From: an uncultured Chloroflexia bacterium
GTDB lineage: Bacteria; Chloroflexota; Limnocylindria; Limnocylindrales; CSP1-4
DNA: 64,000 nucleotides
Direction: 5' to 3'
Assembly (NCBI GenBank): GCA_963707395.1
Contig: CAVPPQ010000002.1
Coordinates: 195,474 to 259,473, forward strand
In this document: in pieces, positions 46,147 through 52,867 of the stretch
Position numbering within the stretch: the stretch's first letter is position 1
Layout of the letters: each line of letters begins with the position of its first letter
Program-made: the position numbers and the translations under genes
The notes under the pieces: generated by a model
Told to the model about the DNA's origin: nothing
The model's input: the letters and a program-made list of their open reading frames with translations, nothing else
The model's database searches: none

Positions 46147-46548
46147 TCACGTCCGTTCCAGGACGACCTCGTTGACGGCGCCCTCGACGATCGTCCAGGC
46201 GCGCACCTCGGGCGGCTCGCCCAGGAAGGAGCAGAGCACGTAGAGCGCGTCGGGGTAGGCCGCCAGGCCGACGTCGGTGGCCGAGGGCCGTGGCGGCGAG
46301 GCGACGTGGGAGTGGACGATGGCCCAGATCACCTCGTCCGCGTCGTCGATCTCGAGCATGACGCGCAGCTGCTCGTCGGGGTCCATGAGATAGCGATAGG
46401 GAGAGGCAGCCGCGTTGCGCATGCCCACGAAACGCGTCGGGACGCCGCCGTCCTCGGGGGTCCGGTCGGAGACGAGGAGTCCGCAGCCCTCGTTGGGCAG
46501 GGCGTCCCGCAGCCAGTCGACGAGCTCGTCGCGGATGCGGGGCGACAT
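46147..46548 (-). CDS. mec: JAMM/MPN+ metalloprotease, Mec+-like (CysO C-terminal processing and cysteine release)
   Basis: JAMM motif E…HSHVASPPRPSATD; Mec-like N-terminus (RIRDELVDWLRDALPNEGCG). Start set at the internal ATG; the ORF could extend upstream to 46746. Confidence 0.7.
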   Translation of the reverse strand: MSPRIRDELVDWLRDALPNEGCGLLVSDRTPEDGGVPTRFVGMRNAAASPYRYLMDPDEQLRVMLEIDDADEVIWAIVHSHVASPPRPSATDVGLAAYPDALYVLCSFLGEPPEVRAWTIVEGAVNEVVLERT

Positions 46549-46866
46549 GGCGGCCGAGGCCGGCGTCCACGGCGGGCCGGCGCCGCGGCCGACGGCACCC
46601 CAGTCGGCCAGGTGGCGTTCCTCCGCGACCGCGCCCAGGTCGGCCGCCCGTTGCCAGGCCGCGACTCCGGGGACGGAGGCATCGCCCGTGACCGCCGGCT
46701 CGTGAGCCTCGGAGCGGATCGGAGACGCGCCGGCGCCGGAGGCCACGCCCGTGCCAGGACCCTGGCCGGTGCCGAGGATCCTCGCGGGTGCCGGGATCCT
46801 CGCCGGTGCTGGGGTCCTCGCGGGTGCTGGGGTCCTCGCCAGAGGTCGGGCCCCGGTCGCTGTCGC

Positions 46867-47886
46867 TCACCACAGGTTCAGGCTGTCCACGACATCCTCG
46901 TCGGCGTCGAGATCACGCGTCCAGATGTCCTCGCTGAGGTACTTCCAGCCACCGTCGGCGAGGAGCGCGACGATCGTGCCGCGCTCCATCTCGCGAGCCA
47001 GCTGCTTGGCCGCCACCATGACCGCGCCACAGGAGACGCCGGCGAAGATGCCCTCGCGGTCGGTGAGCTCGCGCAGCGCCTCGATGGCCTGCGCGTTGGA
47101 AACGAGGAGCCGGCCGTCCAGCACGGAGGCATCGAAGATCTCCGGGATGAAGCCCTCCTCCAGCGAGCGCAGGCCCTGGACGCGCTCGCCGGGCAGCGGC
47201 TCCGCGGCATAGATGCGCACGTCGGGGTTGTGCCGCCGCAACCGCCGGCCCACGCCCATGAGCGTGCCGCCGGTGCCCAAACCAGCCACGAAGGCGTCCA
47301 CCTCCGGACAGTCGGCGATGATCTCCTCCGCGGTGGTCTCCTCGTGCGCCCGCGGATTGGCTTCGTTGCCGTACTGGTAGGGCATCACGAAGCGCGCGTC
47401 CCTGGCCACGAGGTGCTTGGCCAGCGCGATCGCCCCATTTGAGCCCAGGTGGCCCGGCGAGTCGATGACCTCCGCGCCGAAGAGCGCCAGCAACTGGCGC
47501 CGTTCCATGGTCACGTTGTCCGGCACCACGACGGCCACGCGATAGCCCTTGCGGCGCGCGATCATGGCCAGCCCGATGCCGGTATTGCCGCTGGTGGGCT
47601 CGATGATGATGGAGTCCGGCCGCAGGCGGCCGGCGCGCTCCAGGTCCTCGATGAGGTACTTGGCGACGCGGTCCTTGACCGACCCCGTCGGGTTCATGAA
47701 CTCCAGCTTGGCGTAGAGCCGCACGTTGGGATTGGGGCAGACGTTGGGGACCTCCACCAGCGGCGTGAAGCCGATGGCGTCCACGATGGACGGGAAGCGG
47801 CCCCCGTGTCGCGCGTTGCCGCCGTGGGCATGCGGCCGCAGAGCGTCGACCTCGACCCCGGACGGCCGCTCCGACGTCGCCGTCAC
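46867..47886 (-). CDS. cysM: cysteine synthase, CysM-type (CysO-thiocarboxylate-dependent O-phosphoserine sulfhydrylase-like)
   Basis: PLP lysine region NPTGSVKDR, and GTGGT glycine loop. GTG start. Confidence 0.85.
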   Translation of the reverse strand: MTATSERPSGVEVDALRPHAHGGNARHGGRFPSIVDAIGFTPLVEVPNVCPNPNVRLYAKLEFMNPTGSVKDRVAKYLIEDLERAGRLRPDSIIIEPTSGNTGIGLAMIARRKGYRVAVVVPDNVTMERRQLLALFGAEVIDSPGHLGSNGAIALAKHLVARDARFVMPYQYGNEANPRAHEETTAEEIIADCPEVDAFVAGLGTGGTLMGVGRRLRRHNPDVRIYAAEPLPGERVQGLRSLEEGFIPEIFDASVLDGRLLVSNAQAIEALRELTDREGIFAGVSCGAVMVAAKQLAREMERGTIVALLADGGWKYLSEDIWTRDLDADEDVVDSLNLW

Positions 47887-47898
47887 GAGCGTGGCGCC

Positions 47899-48174
47899 CT
47901 ACCGGCCTCCGGCCATGGCCGGCAGAAGGATGACCTCGTCGGCAGCGGCGACCGGGGTCTCCAGGCCCTGCTCGTAGCGCACGTCGCGGCCGTTGACGTA
48001 GACGTTGACGAAGCGGTTCAGCTCGCCGTCGGCGGAGAAGACCTGCTCGCGGAGGCCGGGGTGCAGCTCCAGCAGCGACGTGAGGGCCTCACCGACGGTC
48101 GCGCCACTCACCTCGACGCGCTTCTGGTTGCCGGCCTGTGCGCGCAGCACGGGCGGGATGCGGACCGCGGTCAT
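47899..48174 (-). CDS. cysO: sulfur-carrier protein CysO (MoaD/ThiS family) with one residue (Arg) after the Gly-Gly
   Basis: 91 aa. The C-terminal two-thirds (RFVNVYVNGRDVRY…VILLPAMAGG-R) closely match my recollection of the M. tuberculosis CysO C-terminus (RFVNIYVNDEDVRF…SVTILPAVAGG). ATGA overlap with the upstream E1 gene. Confidence 0.8.
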   Translation of the reverse strand: MTAVRIPPVLRAQAGNQKRVEVSGATVGEALTSLLELHPGLREQVFSADGELNRFVNVYVNGRDVRYEQGLETPVAAADEVILLPAMAGGR

Positions 48175-49358
48175 GCACTCGCCTCCATCGTGGTCGGAAG
48201 GTTCAGGGGGAAGGTGAAGACGCCATCGGCGGCCTCGGGCGCCGGCAGCTCGCCATCGCCGCAGGCGGGGCAATGCGGGTCGCGCCGCAGCTGCAGCTCG
48301 CTGAAGGAGCCGTCCAGGGCGTCGTAGATGAGCAGGCGCCCGGCCAGCGAGTCGCCGATGGCGAGGAGGACCTTGATGCCTTCCGTGGCCTGCAGGAGGC
48401 CCATGACGCCGGGCACGACACCCAGGACGCCGGCCACCGAACAGCCCGGCGCCAGCTCGGGGGGCGGCGGGGTCGGGTAGAGGCAGCGATAGCAGGGCCC
48501 CTCGTGAGGCGTGAAGACGGTCAGCTGGCCCTCGAAGCGGAAGACGGAGGCGTGCACGACAGGGATGCCGGCGCGCACGGCAGCATCGTTGAGCGTGTAG
48601 CGCGTCTCGAAGGTATCGGTGCCATCGAAGATGAGGTCGTACCCGGCGATGAGACGCTCCACGTTGTCCGGTCCGAGCATCTCCTCGAAGGTCTCGACGC
48701 GAACGTCCGGGTTGAGCTCCCGGATGGTCTGCGCGGCCGACTCCGTCTTCTTCATGCCCACCCGGTCGGCGCGGTGGACGACCTGGCGCTGCAGGTTGGA
48801 GACGTCCACGACGTCGAAGTCGACGATACCGATGGTGCCCACGCCGGCTGCGGCCAGGTAGAGCATGGCCGGAGAGCCCAGGCCGCCGGCGCCGATGAAG
48901 AGCACCCGTGAGCCGAGGAGCTTGGCCTGGCCGGCCGCGCCGACCTCCGGGATGAGCAGGTGGCGCGAGTAGCGCTGCTTCTGCTCGCTGGTCAGCAGCA
49001 CGGGTTGCGTGAAGGGGCGACCCTCCGACTTCCAGGCCTGGAAGCCGCCGCTCATGGAGGCCACATCGGTGTAGCCCATGGCCTGCAGCGTCTGGGCCGC
49101 GAAGAGCGAGCGGATGCCGCCCGCGCAGTAGAGGATGACCGGCACCTCGCGGTCCGGGGCGAGGCCCTCGATCTCCTGTTCGATGAACGATTTCGAGACG
49201 TGATGGGCGCCGCCGATGTGCCCTTGCTCCCACTCGCTGACCTCGCGGACGTCGACCAGGACGGCGCCTTCCCGCGTGGCGCGCTCCGTCTGTGCCGTGG
49301 TCACCTCGCGAACGGCGGCGCGGGCATCGCGCAGCAGGTCGCGGTACGACTTGCTCAT
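48171..49358 (-). CDS. moeZ: MoeZ/MoeB-like E1 sulfurtransferase with inverted domain order (N-terminal rhodanese, C-terminal ThiF/E1 domain with CxxC…CxxC)
   Basis: Residues about 1-125 are a rhodanese domain (active-site CAGGIRS). E1 Rossmann motif LFIGAGGLGS follows. Zinc cysteines CYRC…CPAC. Start set at MSKSYRDLL. Confidence 0.8.
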   Translation of the reverse strand: MSKSYRDLLRDARAAVREVTTAQTERATREGAVLVDVREVSEWEQGHIGGAHHVSKSFIEQEIEGLAPDREVPVILYCAGGIRSLFAAQTLQAMGYTDVASMSGGFQAWKSEGRPFTQPVLLTSEQKQRYSRHLLIPEVGAAGQAKLLGSRVLFIGAGGLGSPAMLYLAAAGVGTIGIVDFDVVDVSNLQRQVVHRADRVGMKKTESAAQTIRELNPDVRVETFEEMLGPDNVERLIAGYDLIFDGTDTFETRYTLNDAAVRAGIPVVHASVFRFEGQLTVFTPHEGPCYRCLYPTPPPPELAPGCSVAGVLGVVPGVMGLLQATEGIKVLLAIGDSLAGRLLIYDALDGSFSELQLRRDPHCPACGDGELPAPEAADGVFTFPLNLPTTMEASA

Positions 49359-49801
49359 GTCGGTGCGACCGCGTCGGTCGCGGAACCCCCGTGGGTCGTG
49401 CCTGCGCCACCCGCCGCGGAGGCCGGGGCGTCCGGGCGGCCGTGGAGGGCGTGGTGCAGCGTGTTCAGGGAGAGGAGCGCGCACTTCAGCCGCGCCGGGC
49501 TGATCTCGATGCCCAGCAGGTCCAGGACGTCCTGATCGGTCAGGGCCTCGACGTCGGCCAACGGGCGGCCCTTGACCTCGTCGGTGAGCAGCGAGGCGGA
49601 GGCCTGGCTGATGGCGCAGCCGCGGCCGCTGAAGGCCACGTCGCGGACGGTGCCGTCCGCGCCGAGCGCCAGCATCATCGTGATGCGGTCGCCACAGAGC
49701 GGGTTGTTGCCCTCGTAGACGGCATCAGGCGCGTCCAGCGTGCCGAAGTTGTGGGGCTGTCGATAGTGCTCGAGGATCTCGTCGCGGTAGAGGTCGTCCA
49801 T
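49355..49801 (-). CDS. sufU: SufU/IscU-like Fe-S scaffold / sulfur acceptor
   Basis: Conserved cysteines LCGD…GRGCAISQASAS…LKC. ATGA overlap with moeZ. Confidence 0.8.
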   Translation of the reverse strand: MDDLYRDEILEHYRQPHNFGTLDAPDAVYEGNNPLCGDRITMMLALGADGTVRDVAFSGRGCAISQASASLLTDEVKGRPLADVEALTDQDVLDLLGIEISPARLKCALLSLNTLHHALHGRPDAPASAAGGAGTTHGGSATDAVAPT

Positions 49802-49839
49802 GGGAGTGTGCAGGGTACCCGATGCGGTGGGGTGGATGG

Positions 49840-51144
49840 CTAGGAGATGCTGCCGCCGCTGAGCGGGATGGCCGGCACAGGAGACACGGGCGGGCGGCCA
49901 AAGATGGCCTGCACCTTGCGCAGGCCAGCGGCCAGGCGATCGACGTCGTCACGGCCGCTGTACACGCTGAACGAGGCACGGTTGGTGGCTGGCAGCCCCA
50001 GGCGCTCGTGGAGCGGCTGCGTGCAGTGGTGCCCGGCACGGATGGCCACCGCCTCGCGGTCGAGCAGCGTGGCGACATCGTGGGGATGCGCCTCCGGCAG
50101 GGTGAAGGTGACGATGCCGGCCCGCTCGGCTGCCGTGCGCGGCCCGTGGATGCGGATGCCCGGCACCTCGCGCGGCAGCATCTCCAGCGCGTACGCGGTG
50201 AGGGCCTCCTCGTGCACGGCGACCCGCTCCATGCCGATGGCGGAGAGGTAGTCGACGGCCGCCCCCAGGCCGATGGCGGCCCCGATGTCGGGCGTGCCGG
50301 CCTCGAACTTGTGGGGGATCTCGTTGAACGTGGTGTGCCGCAGGTGCACAGAGCTGATCATCTCGCCGCCGCTCATGAAGGGCGGCATGGCCTCCAGGAT
50401 CTCGGCTCGCGCCCACAGGGCACCCGAGCCGGGGGGGCCCAGGACCTTGTGGCCGGAGAAGACGTAGAAGTCGGCGCCCAGGTCCGCCACGTCCACCGGC
50501 AGGTGCGGCACGGCCTGGGCGCCGTCCACCAGCACCAGTGCGCCGGCGTCGTGCGCCTGGCGAACCATCTCGCGGACGGGCAGCAGCGTGCCCAAGCCAT
50601 TGGACTTGTGGGTGAAGGCCACCAGCCGCGGACGCGTGCGCAGCAGGACCTCCCAGGCGTCCATGTTGAGGTGTCCCTCGGCGTCGAAGGGCACGAACTC
50701 CAGGTCGGCGTCCTTCTCCTGGGCCAGCAGCTGCCAGGGCACCAGGTTGGCGTGGTGCTCCAGCTCCGTCAGGACGATGGTGTCCGCCCGGCCGATGTTG
50801 CCCCGCCCCCAGGCGTAGGCCACCAGGTTGATGGCCTCCGTGGCGTTGCGCACGAAGACGATCTCGCGAGCATCGGGTGCGCCCAGGAAGCGGGCCACCT
50901 TCTGGCGGGCCCCCTCGTAGGCCGCCGTCGCCTCCTCGCCGATGGTGTAGATGCCGCGGTGCACGTTGGCGCTGTAGCGGCTGTGGTAAGCGTCCACCGC
51001 CTCGATGACCGAGCGCGGCTTGAGGGCCGTGGCAGCGCTGTCCAGGTAGGCCAGTCGCCGCCCACCGAAGTCGCGCTCGAAGATCGGAAAGTCGCGGCGG
51101 ACGACGTCCGGGTCGAGCGGGGGTTGGTCGTGCACGGGTGCCAT
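49840..51144 (-). CDS. sufS: cysteine desulfurase, SufS (class II)
   Basis: PLP lysine FSGHKVLGP, active-site Cys region RAGHHCTQPL. 434 aa. Confidence 0.9.
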   Translation of the reverse strand: MAPVHDQPPLDPDVVRRDFPIFERDFGGRRLAYLDSAATALKPRSVIEAVDAYHSRYSANVHRGIYTIGEEATAAYEGARQKVARFLGAPDAREIVFVRNATEAINLVAYAWGRGNIGRADTIVLTELEHHANLVPWQLLAQEKDADLEFVPFDAEGHLNMDAWEVLLRTRPRLVAFTHKSNGLGTLLPVREMVRQAHDAGALVLVDGAQAVPHLPVDVADLGADFYVFSGHKVLGPPGSGALWARAEILEAMPPFMSGGEMISSVHLRHTTFNEIPHKFEAGTPDIGAAIGLGAAVDYLSAIGMERVAVHEEALTAYALEMLPREVPGIRIHGPRTAAERAGIVTFTLPEAHPHDVATLLDREAVAIRAGHHCTQPLHERLGLPATNRASFSVYSGRDDVDRLAAGLRKVQAIFGRPPVSPVPAIPLSGGSIS

Positions 51145-51173
51145 GTCGGGTTCGGGTCGAGTGCCCGGCGCCG

Positions 51174-52142
51174 TCAGCCCGCCTGGACCTCGAGGTGCTC
51201 CACCTCGGGGTCCTCGTCGAGTGCGTCGATGTCGAAGCCGGCCTCGCGCAGGATGGGCGCGTAACCCTCGTCCTCCAGCCGCAGGGCCAGGTCCTTGCCG
51301 CCCGAGGCGATGATGCGGCCGTGCGCCAGGACGTGGACGAGGTCAGGCTGGATGTAGTTGAGCAGGCGCTGGTAGTGGGTGATGAGGAGCACGCCCAGGT
51401 CCGGGCTGAGCTGGGCGTTGACGCCCTCGGCCACGATGCGCAGCGCATCGATGTCGAGACCCGAATCGGTCTCGTCGAGGATCGCGAACTCCGGCTCCAG
51501 GATGGCCATCTGGAGCATCTCCAGGCGCTTCTTCTCGCCGCCGGAGAAGCCCTCGTTGACGTACCGACCAGCGAACGAGTCGTCCAGCTTGAGTAGCGCC
51601 ATCTTGTCGCGCAGGAGTCGGCGGAAGTCGGCCATCTTGATGCCGCCCCGGGTCGGGTCGGACGGATCGATCTCGCCGTCGCCGCCCTCCAGCCCCCGTC
51701 GGCGCGCATTGAGCGCGGTGCGCAGGAAGGAGGCCACGGAGAGCCCGGGCACGGCCGTGGGGTACTGGAAGGCCAGGAAGAGGCCCAGGCGGGCGCGCTT
51801 GTCCGGGCTGAGCTGGAGGATGTCGTGGCCCTTCCAGATGACCTCGCCCTGCGTCACCTGGTAGGCGGGGTGGCCCATGAGGGCGTAGGCGAGGGTCGTC
51901 TTGCCCGAGCCGTTGCGGCCCATGATGGCGTGGACCTCGCCCTTGCGGACCTCCAGGTCGATGCCGCGCAGGATCTCGCGCGTGGGGTCAGCCGAGGGGA
52001 CGACGTGCAGATCCCGGATGAGGAGGACGCGGTCGGCATCGGTGGCCGAAGCGCGCTCGGCAGCTGAGGCGCTCTCGGCGGCAGTGGCGGGGCTGGTGCT
52101 GGCCTGGGGATCTCCGGGCAGCGTGGCAGTGTCGCGGTTCAT
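51174..52142 (-). CDS. sufC: Fe-S cluster assembly ATPase SufC (with ~50-aa N-terminal extension)
   Basis: Walker A GRNGSGKTT, signature FSGGEKKR, Walker B ILDETDSGLD, H-loop ITHYQR; close to canonical SufC. Confidence 0.85.
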   Translation of the reverse strand: MNRDTATLPGDPQASTSPATAAESASAAERASATDADRVLLIRDLHVVPSADPTREILRGIDLEVRKGEVHAIMGRNGSGKTTLAYALMGHPAYQVTQGEVIWKGHDILQLSPDKRARLGLFLAFQYPTAVPGLSVASFLRTALNARRRGLEGGDGEIDPSDPTRGGIKMADFRRLLRDKMALLKLDDSFAGRYVNEGFSGGEKKRLEMLQMAILEPEFAILDETDSGLDIDALRIVAEGVNAQLSPDLGVLLITHYQRLLNYIQPDLVHVLAHGRIIASGGKDLALRLEDEGYAPILREAGFDIDALDEDPEVEHLEVQAG

Positions 52143-52708
52143 GGCTGGACGATGGGCTCCTTGGCGGGACGGTCGGGGAGTGGTCGGACGGTCACGAGGA
52201 CCGCGTCATCTTGACCCGGCCGAGTGTCGCGGCCGGACGTCGGCGGGTGCGAGGGGTGCCCAGCTCCGGGCAGGGTGAGCTCTGCCAGGGAGGTGGACTC
52301 CAGCGCCTGCACGACGGCGTCGCGGACGCGACGCCAGAGCAGATCGACCGTGCAGAACCCGCCCCGGGAGCAGAGTTCGCCGGGGTGCGCGTCCCCGCTG
52401 GCACAGATCATCGGCGCGATGGGACCCTCGAGCGCGGTCACGACCTCCGCCATGTGGATGCGCGAGGGGTGCCGCGCGAGCTCGTAGCCGCCGTGCGCGC
52501 CGCGGGTGCTGGTGACCAAGCCGGCCTCGCGCAGGCTGACCACCAGCTGCTCCAGGTAGGGGCGCGGCAAGTCCTCGTGCTCAGCCATCTCCGAAAGGCT
52601 GACGGGGCCGCTGCCGTGGTGGCGCGCCAGCTCCACCATGAGGCGCACGCCGTACTCCCCACGCGTGGAGAAGTGGAGGGCTCCCGATGGCGGGGCGGTG
52701 GTGCGCAC
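52139..52708 (-). CDS. Rrf2 family transcriptional regulator (IscR/SufR-like) with C-terminal extension
   Basis: HTH STRGEYGVRLMVELARHH…VSLSEMAEHEDLPRPYLEQL. GTG start. ATGA overlap with sufC. Confidence 0.8.
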   Translation of the reverse strand: MRTTAPPSGALHFSTRGEYGVRLMVELARHHGSGPVSLSEMAEHEDLPRPYLEQLVVSLREAGLVTSTRGAHGGYELARHPSRIHMAEVVTALEGPIAPMICASGDAHPGELCSRGGFCTVDLLWRRVRDAVVQALESTSLAELTLPGAGHPSHPPTSGRDTRPGQDDAVLVTVRPLPDRPAKEPIVQP

Positions 52709-52760
52709 GAAGGTCTCCTGGGCCGGGCCGATGCGTCGCCGCGACCTGCGGCGCCGGCGA

Positions 52761-52787
52761 ATAATCCCGACTGATTTCGTCAGGATT
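52761..52787 (-). promoter_or_regulatory. putative Rrf2/IscR-type operator (imperfect palindrome ATAATCCCGACTGATTTCGTCAGGATT) upstream of the Rrf2-suf-cysO operon
   Basis: About 55 nt upstream of the Rrf2 start. Resembles IscR type-1 box ATASYYGACTRwwwYAGTCRRSTAT. Confidence 0.3.
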
Positions 52788-52867
52788 GAGTCTAGCCCGC
52801 GGGCCGGACCTCGTCAACGTGGGCGCCTGCCGCTGTCACGGACCGGGCACAGCCGGCGCGTGTGTGG

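What the first reader, a model, noticed from the sequence alone, without database searches (positions are those of the whole stretch)
46147..48174. CysO sulfur carrier ends in Gly-Gly-Arg next to a JAMM (Mec+) protease: implies obligatory C-terminal processing
Translating the minus strand gives …LLPAMAGGR-stop, which I verified codon by codon. Sulfur-carrier proteins must expose the GG carboxylate for adenylation. Extra C-terminal residues are removed by JAMM proteases in a few systems (QbsE/QbsD is the one I am confident of). A Mec-like JAMM gene sits two genes downstream. In M. tuberculosis, as I recall it, CysO ends directly in GG.
Basis: partly seen in the sequence, partly recalled or inferred. 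Interest (0 to 1): 0.55.

Follow-up and report, generated by a model that had tools for sequence, protein, structure and literature searches.

The report
Sulfur-carrier protein with a removable Arg cap
A small sulfur-carrier protein used to make cysteine is encoded with one extra arginine after its reactive Gly-Gly end, and the metalloprotease in the same operon almost certainly clips it off; this is real, but it is an ordinary variation on a processing scheme already known in several bacteria.

Summary
The minus-strand gene 48174..47899 encodes a 91-aa ThiS/MoaD-fold protein ending ...LLPAMAGGR-TAG. It sits in the operon rhodanese-ThiF E1, CysO, CysM-like PLP enzyme, JAMM/JAB peptidase. The organism is a Chloroflexota (Limnocylindria-type) bacterium, not an actinobacterium.

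The Arg is not a sequencing error. 111 of the 120 closest homologues end in GGR, and the Arg codon varies synonymously (CGG, CGC, CGT).

Across 79 orthologous loci the operon stays constant while the tail varies: no tail in 36, R in 20, then A, AG, C, SR and tails up to 19 aa. A tree of 60 loci implies at least 10 gains or losses.

M. tuberculosis CysO does end in GG. Its partner Mec+ normally hydrolyses a CysO-Gly-Gly-Cys amide bond, so removing one Arg is the same chemistry. Some relatives literally encode GGC.

JAMM maturation of tailed sulfur carriers has been proposed or reported for QbsE/QbsD, CxnE/CxnF and MetO/Mec.

Processing by the operon's JAMM is therefore well supported by inference but not shown biochemically. 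Verdict: a new member of a known kind, of low to moderate interest.

It carries a conserved N-terminal extension.

The parts
47899..48174 (-). cysO: 91-aa ThiS/MoaD-fold sulfur-carrier protein ending AMAGG-R. Gly-Gly codons are at 47910-47905, the extra Arg codon CGG at 47904-47902 and the TAG stop at 47901-47899.
   Evidence: Sequence read. Pfam ThiS and NCBIfam SAMP1/MoaD hits. Best PDB relative is M. tuberculosis CysO. Homologue tails.
47902..47904 (-). The extra C-terminal Arg codon (CGG), which forms the one-residue cap that must be removed to expose the Gly-Gly carboxylate.
   Evidence: The residue is conserved as Arg in 93% of 119 close homologues, rank 66 of 91 columns by entropy. Relatives use the synonymous codons CGG, CGC and CGT, and a TGC (Cys) variant is nested within the clade.
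46147..46746 (-). JAMM/JAB (Mec-like) zinc metallopeptidase, probably 199 aa from GTG 46746. The JAB domain covers about residues 67-199. The catalytic Glu86 lies at 46489-46491 and the HSHVASPPRPSATD motif at 46273-46314. The N-terminal extension of about 65 aa carries the conserved motifs AAWQRAAD and PPWTPAS.
   Evidence: Pfam Prok-JAB covers residues 70-186. Alignment to JAB structures 2KKS, 2KCQ and PfJAMM1 5LD9/5LDA. Motif columns are at least 90% conserved in 69 orthologues. The extension is conserved as protein, with third-position variability 0.39 against 0.20 and 0.21.
46867..47886 (-). cysM-like PLP-dependent cysteine synthase (339 aa, GTG start 12 nt after the cysO stop). The PLP lysine in SVKDR is at 47674-47676. 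The Arg aligned with M. tuberculosis CysM Arg220 is at 47167-47169.
   Evidence: Pfam PALP. NCBIfam cysKM subfamily. Best PDB hit is M. tuberculosis CysM / O-phosphoserine sulfhydrylase 3DWG_A, E=1.1e-88. Coordinates.
48171..49358 (-). E1-like activating enzyme (395 aa from ATG 49358) with an N-terminal rhodanese domain (CAGGIR loop, 49110-49127) and a ThiF/MoeB adenylation domain (GAGGLG, 48876-48893). Two CxxC motifs lie at 48483-48494 and 48261-48272. Its stop overlaps the cysO start (ATGA).
   Evidence: Pfam Rhodanese and ThiF. NCBIfam NF006444, 546 bits, above its cutoff. Junction sequences. Motifs.
46728..46840 (.). 18-nt tandem repeat (6.2 copies) between the cysM stop and the conserved part of the JAMM gene. 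It is absent from relatives.
   Evidence: TRF output. DNA alignment with L001-L006 shows a window-specific insertion of about 90 nt.
49355..51144 (-). Context: sufS (cysteine desulfurase, 51144..49840) and sufU (NifU_N, 49801..49355) lie immediately upstream. The sufU stop overlaps the E1 start (ATGA).
   Evidence: Pfam hits. Junction sequence and conservation of SufS and/or SufU (mostly both) upstream of the E1 in 68 of 80 related loci.

Best explanation
This is a protein-thiocarboxylate cysteine-biosynthesis operon of the M. tuberculosis CysO/CysM/Mec type in a Chloroflexota (Limnocylindria-type) genome. CysO is translated as a pro-form, CysO-Gly-Gly-Arg. The E1 (rhodanese-ThiF) can only adenylate a free C-terminal Gly carboxylate, so the Arg must first be hydrolysed off. 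The most likely agent is the JAMM zinc peptidase encoded two genes downstream. Its normal job in every catalytic cycle is to hydrolyse the chemically equivalent CysO-Gly-Gly-Cys amide that forms after CysM couples CysO-thiocarboxylate to the aminoacrylate derived from O-phosphoserine. Maturation is thus one extra 'turnover' per newly made CysO molecule. Because the pathway already contains this hydrolase, residues after GG cost little, and the tail drifts freely between lineages (none, R, C, A, AG, SR, and tails up to 19 aa). Shown here: the tail is real and heritable, the operon is conserved, and the catalytic motifs are intact. Inferred: the cleavage itself, the identity of the protease, and the near-neutrality of the tail.
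For: Sequence and domains. CysO and CysM are each closest to the M. tuberculosis proteins among solved structures. The JAMM motif E...HSHx7SxxD is intact and at least 90% conserved across 69 orthologues. The E1-cysO-cysM-JAB order is conserved in nearly all 80 related genome loci whose flank is long enough. Tails differ among orthologues: 36 have none, 20 R, 4 A, 3 AG, 2 C, 2 SR and others reach 19 aa. On a tree of 60 loci there are at least 10 tail/no-tail changes and at least 17 changes of exact tail. The GGC variants nested in the GGR clade encode exactly the pathway's CysO-Cys intermediate. GGR carriers in unrelated 50%-identity clusters also sit beside JAB genes in other gene orders: L081 is mec-cysO-cysM and L082 is PALP-cysO-JAB. 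Natural CysO-CysM fusions and tandem CysO-CysO proteins exist and must be cleaved after GG to work. From the literature, Mec+ hydrolyses the CysO-cysteine adduct (PMC3227635). QbsE (GG-CF) and CxnE (GG plus 10 aa) are proposed JAMM substrates (PMC5925218). Mec is stated to be required for maturation of the carrier MetO in Streptomyces (bioRxiv 10.1101/2024.10.14.618325 citing Hasebe 2024). This four-gene operon type was catalogued in 2006, including in Chloroflexus (PMC1779556). From my own memory, and not readable here: HcyS-Ala is trimmed by the JAMM protein HcyD in Wolinella (Krishnamoorthy and Begley 2011).
Against: There is no biochemical evidence for this protein. Two related loci (L037 with tail AG, L046 with tail AD) have no JAB gene within 5-6 kb on either side, so adjacency is not universal and another peptidase cannot be excluded. 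A third GGR carrier, L084, lies next to a ThiG-like gene with no JAB on its short contig. Because the JAB gene is present in almost all loci whether or not there is a tail, the data cannot show a statistical association between tail and protease. No Mec residue is shared between the main GGR clade and the three independent GGR lineages (L026, L045, L052) to the exclusion of other lineages, so there is no sign of adaptation to Arg at P1'. Arg is bulkier than the residues at the first tail position in the cited examples (Cys in QbsE and in the CysO-Cys adduct, Ser in CxnE; Ala in HcyS from memory). The Arg is 93% conserved within its clade, which is more than a strictly neutral site would be.
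Confidence: 0.75

Rival explanations
1. The Arg is removed, but by a different enzyme such as a general cytoplasmic carboxypeptidase. On this view the operon's JAMM protein only recycles CysO-Cys.
For: L037 and L046 carry tails (AG, AD) with no JAB gene within 5-6 kb. L084 has a GGR carrier without an adjacent JAB on its short contig. No Arg-specific feature was found in Mec.
Against: The JAB gene accompanies the carrier in nearly all loci and in independent gene orders. Its known reaction already cleaves one residue off CysO-GG (PMC3227635). Mec is reported to mature another tailed carrier. The JAMM gene could simply lie elsewhere in the L037 and L046 genomes, as moeZ does in M. tuberculosis (from my own memory).
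Confidence: 0.12
2. The module is mainly, or additionally, a ubiquitin-like protein-conjugation system of the SAMP/TtuB type. The JAMM protein would then act as both precursor-processing protease and deconjugase, as for ubiquitin precursors.
For: NCBIfam scores CysO above the cutoff of the SAMP1 equivalog model (73.9 against 60). The JAMM protein and the E1 give sub-cutoff hits to desampylase and the SAMP-activating E1. PMC1779556 proposed conjugation roles for JAB-associated operons.
Against: A CysM orthologue is fixed in the operon between carrier and protease, and natural CysO-CysM fusions exist. CysO and CysM are both closest to the M. tuberculosis cysteine-pathway pair. No E2-like gene is present. 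The desampylase and UbaA hits are far below their cutoffs.
Confidence: 0.08
3. The Arg is retained, and CysO-GGR is either inactive or acts without C-terminal activation, for example as a regulatory partner of CysM.
For: None directly. The only hint is moderate conservation of the Arg within its clade.
Against: The invariant PAMAGG end, the dedicated E1 translationally coupled to cysO (ATGA overlap) and the intact JAMM enzyme all point to C-terminal chemistry. Sister lineages with the same operon end exactly at GG.
Confidence: 0.03
4. The Arg codon is an artefact of sequencing or assembly error, or of a miscalled stop.
For: Several related long-read MAG loci show frameshifted genes. MoeZ is split into two frames in L001, and the Mec extension is shifted in L013 relative to L014.
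Against: 111 of 120 independent homologue clusters from several sources end in GGR. The Arg codon varies synonymously while TAG follows in the whole clade. GGR recurs in at least 9 separate 50%-identity clusters.
Confidence: 0.01

Closest known systems
M. tuberculosis CysO / CysM / Mec+ / MoeZR protein-thiocarboxylate cysteine pathway (Rv1335, Rv1336, Rv1334, Rv3206c)
   Same: The carrier has the same fold and the same ...A-x-AGG end. The CysM partner is the closest solved relative (E=1e-88) and keeps the residue aligned with Arg220. A JAB/JAMM hydrolase sits in the same gene cluster, and the E1 is a rhodanese-containing ThiF-type enzyme. Mec+ hydrolyses a single residue (Cys) from CysO-GG (PMC3227635).
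   Different: M. tuberculosis CysO ends exactly at GG, whereas this one ends in GGR. The gene order here is E1-cysO-cysM-mec rather than mec-cysO-cysM with moeZ elsewhere (the M. tuberculosis order is from my own memory). The E1 here has its rhodanese domain at the N terminus and keeps both CxxC motifs. MoeZR has a C-terminal rhodanese and mostly lacks the second motif (PMC3227635). The JAMM protein here has an extra conserved N-terminal extension of about 65 aa. The host is Chloroflexota, not Actinobacteria.
QbsE / QbsD (thioquinolobactin, Pseudomonas fluorescens) and CxnE / CxnF (chuangxinmycin, Actinoplanes)
   Same: These are sulfur carriers encoded with residues after GG (CF in QbsE; SEAARAEESR in CxnE) together with a cluster-encoded JAMM protease proposed to expose the GG end before E1 activation (PMC5925218).
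   Different: Those belong to secondary-metabolite clusters, whereas this is a primary cysteine-synthesis operon. The tail here is a single Arg. In this system the same protease also has a catalytic-cycle role.
MetO / MetM / Mec / MoeZ (Streptomyces albulus methionine route) and HcyS-Ala / HcyD (Wolinella succinogenes)
   Same: These are amino-acid biosynthesis pathways that use a protein thiocarboxylate whose carrier needs maturation. The maturing enzyme is Mec for MetO (bioRxiv 10.1101/2024.10.14.618325) and a JAMM-type protease removing one Ala for HcyS (from my own memory; the paper was not readable here).
   Different: Those pathways make homocysteine with MetM or MetY partners. This one has a CysM partner and an Arg cap.
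Operon type 4c of Iyer, Burroughs and Aravind 2006 (ThiS/MoaD + E1-rhodanese + JAB + cysteine synthase)
   Same: The four-gene content is the same, and that type was already listed for Chloroflexus, Rubrobacter, Salinibacter and others (PMC1779556).
   Different: In the passages I read, that paper did not describe one-residue tails. It proposed JAB cleavage only for fused carriers.

Membership tests
ThiS/MoaD-fold sulfur-carrier proteins (CysO type) | Beta-grasp ThiS/MoaD domain | tested here: met
   Pfam PF02597 E=1.2e-14 over residues 5-90. Alignment to CysO 3DWG_C has E=4.8e-19. The fold itself was not modelled.
ThiS/MoaD-fold sulfur-carrier proteins (CysO type) | Gly-Gly at the very C terminus of the mature protein | tested here: inconclusive
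   GG is present and invariant at residues 89-90, but the gene encodes one more residue, Arg91. The mature end cannot be known without mass spectrometry.
ThiS/MoaD-fold sulfur-carrier proteins (CysO type) | Genetic linkage to a CysM-type PLP sulfhydrylase and an E1-like activator | tested here: met
   The E1 stop overlaps the cysO start, and cysM starts 12 nt after the cysO stop. The arrangement is conserved in related loci.
ThiS/MoaD-fold sulfur-carrier proteins (CysO type) | Formation of a C-terminal thiocarboxylate and sulfur transfer to O-phosphoserine-derived aminoacrylate | not testable with these tools
   This requires biochemistry.
JAMM/MPN+ (Prok-JAB, Mec+-like) metallopeptidases | Motif E-x(n)-H-S/T-H-x7-S-x2-D | tested here: met
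   Glu86 in PNEGCG and HSHVASPPRPSATD at residues 145-158. Both align with the motif in 2KKS and 2KCQ. The columns are at least 90% conserved in 69 orthologues.
JAMM/MPN+ (Prok-JAB, Mec+-like) metallopeptidases | Hydrolysis of the bond after the carrier's Gly-Gly (CysO-Cys, or a precursor tail) | not testable with these tools
   Inferred from context and from literature on Mec+, QbsD, CxnF and MetO maturation.
CysM (O-phosphoserine sulfhydrylase, M. tuberculosis type) | PLP-binding Lys, and an Arg at the position aligned with M. tuberculosis CysM Arg220 | tested here: met
   Lys71 lies in SVKDR. Arg240 aligns with chain residue 222 of 3DWG_A, which I calculate to be native Arg220. The role of Arg220 in O-phosphoserine specificity is from my own memory. 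Substrate preference was not tested.
MoeZR (M. tuberculosis CysO-activating E1) | C-terminal rhodanese domain, with the second CxxC motif lacking and the first replaced by NYRD | tested here: not met
   The rhodanese domain is N-terminal (residues 71-153 of the 437-aa ORF). Both CxxC motifs are present (CYRC, CPAC). The MoeZR definition comes from PMC3227635. The NCBIfam MoeZ model scores 364 against a cutoff of 647, whereas NF006444 scores 546 against a cutoff of 449. The enzyme works like MoeZR but is not a member of that subfamily.
SAMP1 / archaeal ubiquitin-like modifiers | Match to the NCBIfam equivalog model, together with a cognate UbaA E1 and a desampylase | tested here: inconclusive
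   The carrier passes the SAMP1 model (73.9 against a cutoff of 60). The E1 (333 against 450) and the JAMM protein (64.7 against 130) fail their models. Conjugation was not tested.

The most novel reading that the evidence does not exclude
The one-residue Arg cap is not just tolerated drift but a functional pro-sequence. It would keep newly made CysO inert until the JAMM enzyme, which in this clade carries a conserved Trp-containing N-terminal extension of unknown function, licenses it. Entry of carrier into the thiocarboxylate cycle would then be gated by protease activity, for example by zinc or redox state. This would parallel ubiquitin-precursor processing. The 93% conservation of Arg within the clade, and its recurrence as the commonest single-residue tail in separate lineages, would then reflect selection rather than the mutational path from stop codons.
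Probability: 0.12. Interest if true: 0.5.

Novelty: new member of a known kind. Interest (0 to 1): 0.25.

Why it matters
For annotation and pathway reconstruction, CysO-type carriers should not be expected to end at GG. The JAMM gene should be counted as needed twice: once for maturation and once for product release. This applies to tools such as GapMind and to heterologous expression of these carriers, which would fail without trimming or co-expression of the protease. For evolution, the data give a clean example of a pathway-intrinsic hydrolase making stop-codon position after GG nearly free to drift. There are at least 10 gains or losses among 60 related genomes. This is the same logic by which ubiquitin is always made as a precursor. 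The finding does not open a new mechanism.

Tried and rejected
- **Sequencing error or miscalled stop:** rejected, because the GGR end is conserved with synonymous Arg codons.
- **TAG read-through giving a CysO-CysM fusion:** in the window cysO and cysM share a reading frame, separated by TAG and four codons. The frame relation is not kept in relatives: by my arithmetic on the coordinates, L008, L009, L013 and L017-L019 are out of frame. I treat the shared frame as coincidence.
- **Adaptation of the JAMM enzyme to Arg:** I looked for residues shared by the main GGR clade and by L026, L045 and L052 but absent elsewhere. None was found.
- **Statistical link between tail and JAMM adjacency:** not possible, because the JAB gene is nearly universal in these loci.
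- **RNA elements:** Rfam gave no hits at gathering threshold in the whole window.
- **Promoters and terminators:** the scan gave only one promoter-like site, upstream of the Rrf2 gene, and nothing inside the operon.
- **Literature:** the primary papers of Burns 2005, Godert 2007, Krishnamoorthy and Begley 2011, Sasaki 2014 and Hasebe 2024 were not held. Statements about them rest on secondary citations or on my memory and are marked as such.
- **Not run:** I did not run structure prediction, because a single-chain model would not test cleavage.
Full report
**1. What is in the sequence**

On the minus strand, the ORF 48174..47899 encodes a 91-aa protein:

MTAVRIPPVLRAQAGNQKRVEVSGATVGEALTSLLELHPGLREQVFSADGELNRFVNVYVNGRDVRYEQGLETPVAAADEVILLPAMAGGR

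Its last codons read GGA GGC CGG TAG. It matches Pfam ThiS (PF02597, E=1.2e-14), and the match ends on the second Gly. NCBIfam places it above the cutoff of the SAMP1 model and just below the archaeal MoaD model.

The neighbouring genes on the same strand are as follows.
- **Upstream:** a 395-aa E1-like enzyme with an N-terminal rhodanese domain and a ThiF domain. Its TGA overlaps the cysO ATG (ATGA).
- **Downstream, 12 nt after the stop:** a 339-aa PLP enzyme.
- **Next downstream:** a Prok-JAB protein.

**2. Where it comes from**

The closest genomic relatives (up to 99% identity) are metagenome-assembled genomes labelled Chloroflexia, Chloroflexota or Candidatus Limnocylindrales. A few more distant ones are Solirubrobacterales. 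The window is thus a high-GC Chloroflexota genome, not an actinobacterium.

**3. The tail is real and heritable**

- Of the 120 best homologues (80-97% identity, from several independent sources), 111 end in GGR, 5 in GGC and one each in GGV, GGS, GGA and GGGW.
- In the genome loci the Arg codon is CGG (L001-L003, L026, L052), CGC (14 loci) or CGT (L045).
- The two GGC loci (TGC) are one transition away from CGC.
- Within the close clade the Arg column is 93% conserved. It ranks 66th of 91 columns. That is less than the invariant core (45 invariant columns) but more than the freely varying surface positions, which are 35-67% conserved.

**4. The operon is constant and the tail is not**

tblastn of the four window proteins against the 80 loci shows the order E1-cysO-cysM-JAB in essentially every locus whose flank is long enough. 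The residues after the aligned PAMAGG differ widely.

| Tail after GG | Loci |
|---|---|
| none | 36 |
| R | 20 |
| A | 4 |
| AG | 3 |
| C | 2 |
| SR | 2 |
| single cases: TG, AD, TA, ATH, APA, SGSR, SHRT, STGEA, SGPWSR, SVSWSR, a 15-mer and a 19-mer | 12 |

On a neighbour-joining tree of concatenated E1 and CysM sequences from 60 loci, Fitch parsimony needs at least 10 tail/no-tail changes. It needs at least 17 changes of exact tail. The GGR state marks one clade with GGC nested inside, and GGR arises again separately in L045 and L052.

A search of one representative per 50%-identity cluster gives the same picture more broadly.
- 104 of 130 classifiable representatives have something after GG.
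- The commonest first residues are A, S and R.
- R is the commonest single-residue tail (9 of 16).
- CysO-CysM fusions (P0205, P0236) and tandem CysO-CysO proteins exist.

Cluster representatives may over-represent long or frameshifted gene calls, so the 80% figure is an upper estimate. The locus-based 54% (43 of 79) is the safer number.

**5. Identity of the partners**

- **CysO:** the best solved relatives are M. tuberculosis CysO (3DWG/3DWM), which ends exactly at Gly93, and a 90-aa ThiS/MoaD family protein (4N6E_B).
- **PLP enzyme:** it is closest to M. tuberculosis CysM (3DWG_A, E=1.1e-88, 301 bits, against 259 bits for the next family). It keeps the PLP lysine and the Arg aligned with Arg220.
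- **JAB protein:** it aligns with the JAB structures 2KKS, 2KCQ and PfJAMM1. It has Glu86 and HSHVASPPRPSATD. These columns are at least 90% conserved in 69 orthologues.
- **E1:** it has the rhodanese CAGGIR loop, the GAGGLG nucleotide loop and both CxxC motifs. Its architecture (N-terminal rhodanese, zinc motifs present) differs from M. tuberculosis MoeZR as defined in PMC3227635. It is functionally analogous but not a member of that subfamily.

**6. Mechanism**

Established chemistry of ThiF/MoeB/E1 enzymes requires a free C-terminal glycine carboxylate for adenylation. A GGR end therefore cannot be activated.

[quoted passage not shown] The bond cleaved in that step is Gly-Gly|Cys, a one-residue amide. 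Gly-Gly|Arg is the same kind of bond. The GGC variants in this clade encode that intermediate directly.

The simplest model is that the operon's JAMM enzyme matures CysO once and then recycles it at each turnover.

Precedents:
- QbsE (GG-CF) with QbsD, and CxnE (GG plus 10 aa) with CxnF (PMC5925218).
- Mec 'required for the maturation' of MetO in Streptomyces (bioRxiv 10.1101/2024.10.14.618325 citing Hasebe 2024; the preprint writes 'N terminus', which I take to be a slip for the C terminus).
- HcyS-Ala with HcyD, from my own memory.

The four-gene operon type was listed in 2006, including for Chloroflexus (PMC1779556).

Independent GGR carriers from other clusters also sit beside JAB genes in different gene orders. 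L081 is mec-cysO-cysM, and L082 is PALP-cysO-JAB with a divergent rhodanese-ThiF.

**7. What weakens the model**

- Nothing here demonstrates cleavage.
- L037 and L046 have tails but no JAB gene within 5-6 kb.
- L084 has a GGR carrier beside a ThiG-like gene on a short contig.
- The near-universal presence of JAB prevents an association test.
- No Arg-specific convergent change was found in the protease.
- Several related long-read MAGs contain frameshifts. Individual long tails should be treated with caution, but the GGR end itself is secure.

**8. Corrections to the coordinates**

In relatives the gene starts at a GTG overlapping the cysM stop (GTGA). It encodes a conserved N-terminal extension of about 65-75 aa:

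...SSADEPAVxGD...VPxVxAWQRAADSGA...GPPW(V/T)PASA...

Third codon positions in this extension vary about twice as much as first and second positions (0.39 against 0.20 and 0.21). In the window the conserved part is in the JAMM frame from at least GTG 46746. The cysM-overlapping GTG (46873) is in another frame. Between them lies a window-specific 18-nt tandem repeat (46728-46840). I give 46147..46746 as the likely CDS and leave the 5' end open.

**9. Comparison with what is known, and verdict**

This works like the M. tuberculosis CysO/CysM/Mec pathway, with a pro-carrier as in QbsE, CxnE, MetO and HcyS.

What is new:
- the lineage (Limnocylindria-type Chloroflexota);
- the single Arg cap;
- the E1 architecture;
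- the N-terminal extension on the protease;
- the quantitative picture of tail lability.

None of these changes the kind of system. I rate it a new member of a known kind, with interest 0.25. The most novel reading still open is that the Arg cap is a selected gate rather than tolerated drift. I give that about 12% probability.

Noticed in passing
window 46147-46873 (minus strand); L002-L019: The JAMM/Mec gene of this clade carries a conserved N-terminal extension of about 65-75 aa, with the motifs EPAVxGD, VPxVxAWQRAAD and GPPW(V/T)PASA and no Pfam match. In relatives it starts at a GTG overlapping the cysM stop (GTGA). In the window and in L001 that start is out of frame with the conserved part, so the true start is uncertain: either GTG 46746 or an indel. 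The function of the extension is unknown.
   Followed up: partly
window 46728-46840: An 18-nt tandem repeat (6.2 copies, 79% matches) lies just downstream of cysM. It is absent from the closest relatives, so it is a window-specific insertion of about 90 nt. In the frame of the cysM-overlapping GTG it would encode GEDP(S/G)T(R/G) repeats.
   Followed up: partly
window 48171-52817 (minus strand): The cysteine module is the tail of a longer gene string: Rrf2-family regulator (52708..52139), ABC ATPase (52142..51174; I take it to be SufC-like from context), SufS (51144..49840), SufU (49801..49355), E1, cysO, cysM, JAMM. There are ATGA overlaps at the sufU/E1 and E1/cysO junctions. The only sigma-70-like site lies at 52817-52789. 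SufS and/or SufU (mostly both) lie directly upstream of the E1 in 68 of 80 related loci. A cysteine desulfurase feeding a cysteine-synthesis carrier would be circular, so the meaning of the linkage is unclear.
   Followed up: partly
window 48171-49358: The E1 has its rhodanese domain at the N terminus and retains both CxxC zinc motifs. This is unlike M. tuberculosis MoeZR, which has a C-terminal rhodanese and mostly lacks the second motif. NCBIfam would name it MoeB (NF006444).
   Followed up: yes
P0205, P0236, P0122, P0138, P0152: Natural CysO-CysM fusion proteins exist, in which GG is followed directly by a full CysM. Tandem CysO-CysO proteins also exist, with each unit ending in GG plus a short tail. 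These must be cut after GG to function.
   Followed up: no
window 47899-48174: NCBIfam scores this bacterial CysO above the cutoff of the archaeal SAMP1 equivalog model (73.9 against 60). Automatic annotation would therefore probably call it 'ubiquitin-like small modifier protein 1'.
   Followed up: no
L001 4813-6001; L013 against L014; L004, L005, L030, L055: Several related MAG loci show genes split between frames. MoeZ is in two frames in L001, and the Mec extension is shifted in L013 relative to its near-identical copy L014. This suggests indel errors in those assemblies. Individual long CysO tails in such MAGs should be read with caution.
   Followed up: partly
L084 1-1248: A GGR-ending CysO-like carrier lies between a gene I judge ThiG-like from its translated C-terminus and a gene that looks HAD-hydrolase-like from its translation (neither was run through a family search). 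No JAB gene is present on the 1.2-kb contig. One-residue Arg caps may therefore also occur on carriers used for thiamin.
   Followed up: no
window 47875-47925: cysO and cysM are in the same reading frame, separated only by TAG and four codons. The frame relation is not conserved in relatives, so it is probably coincidental.
   Followed up: yes
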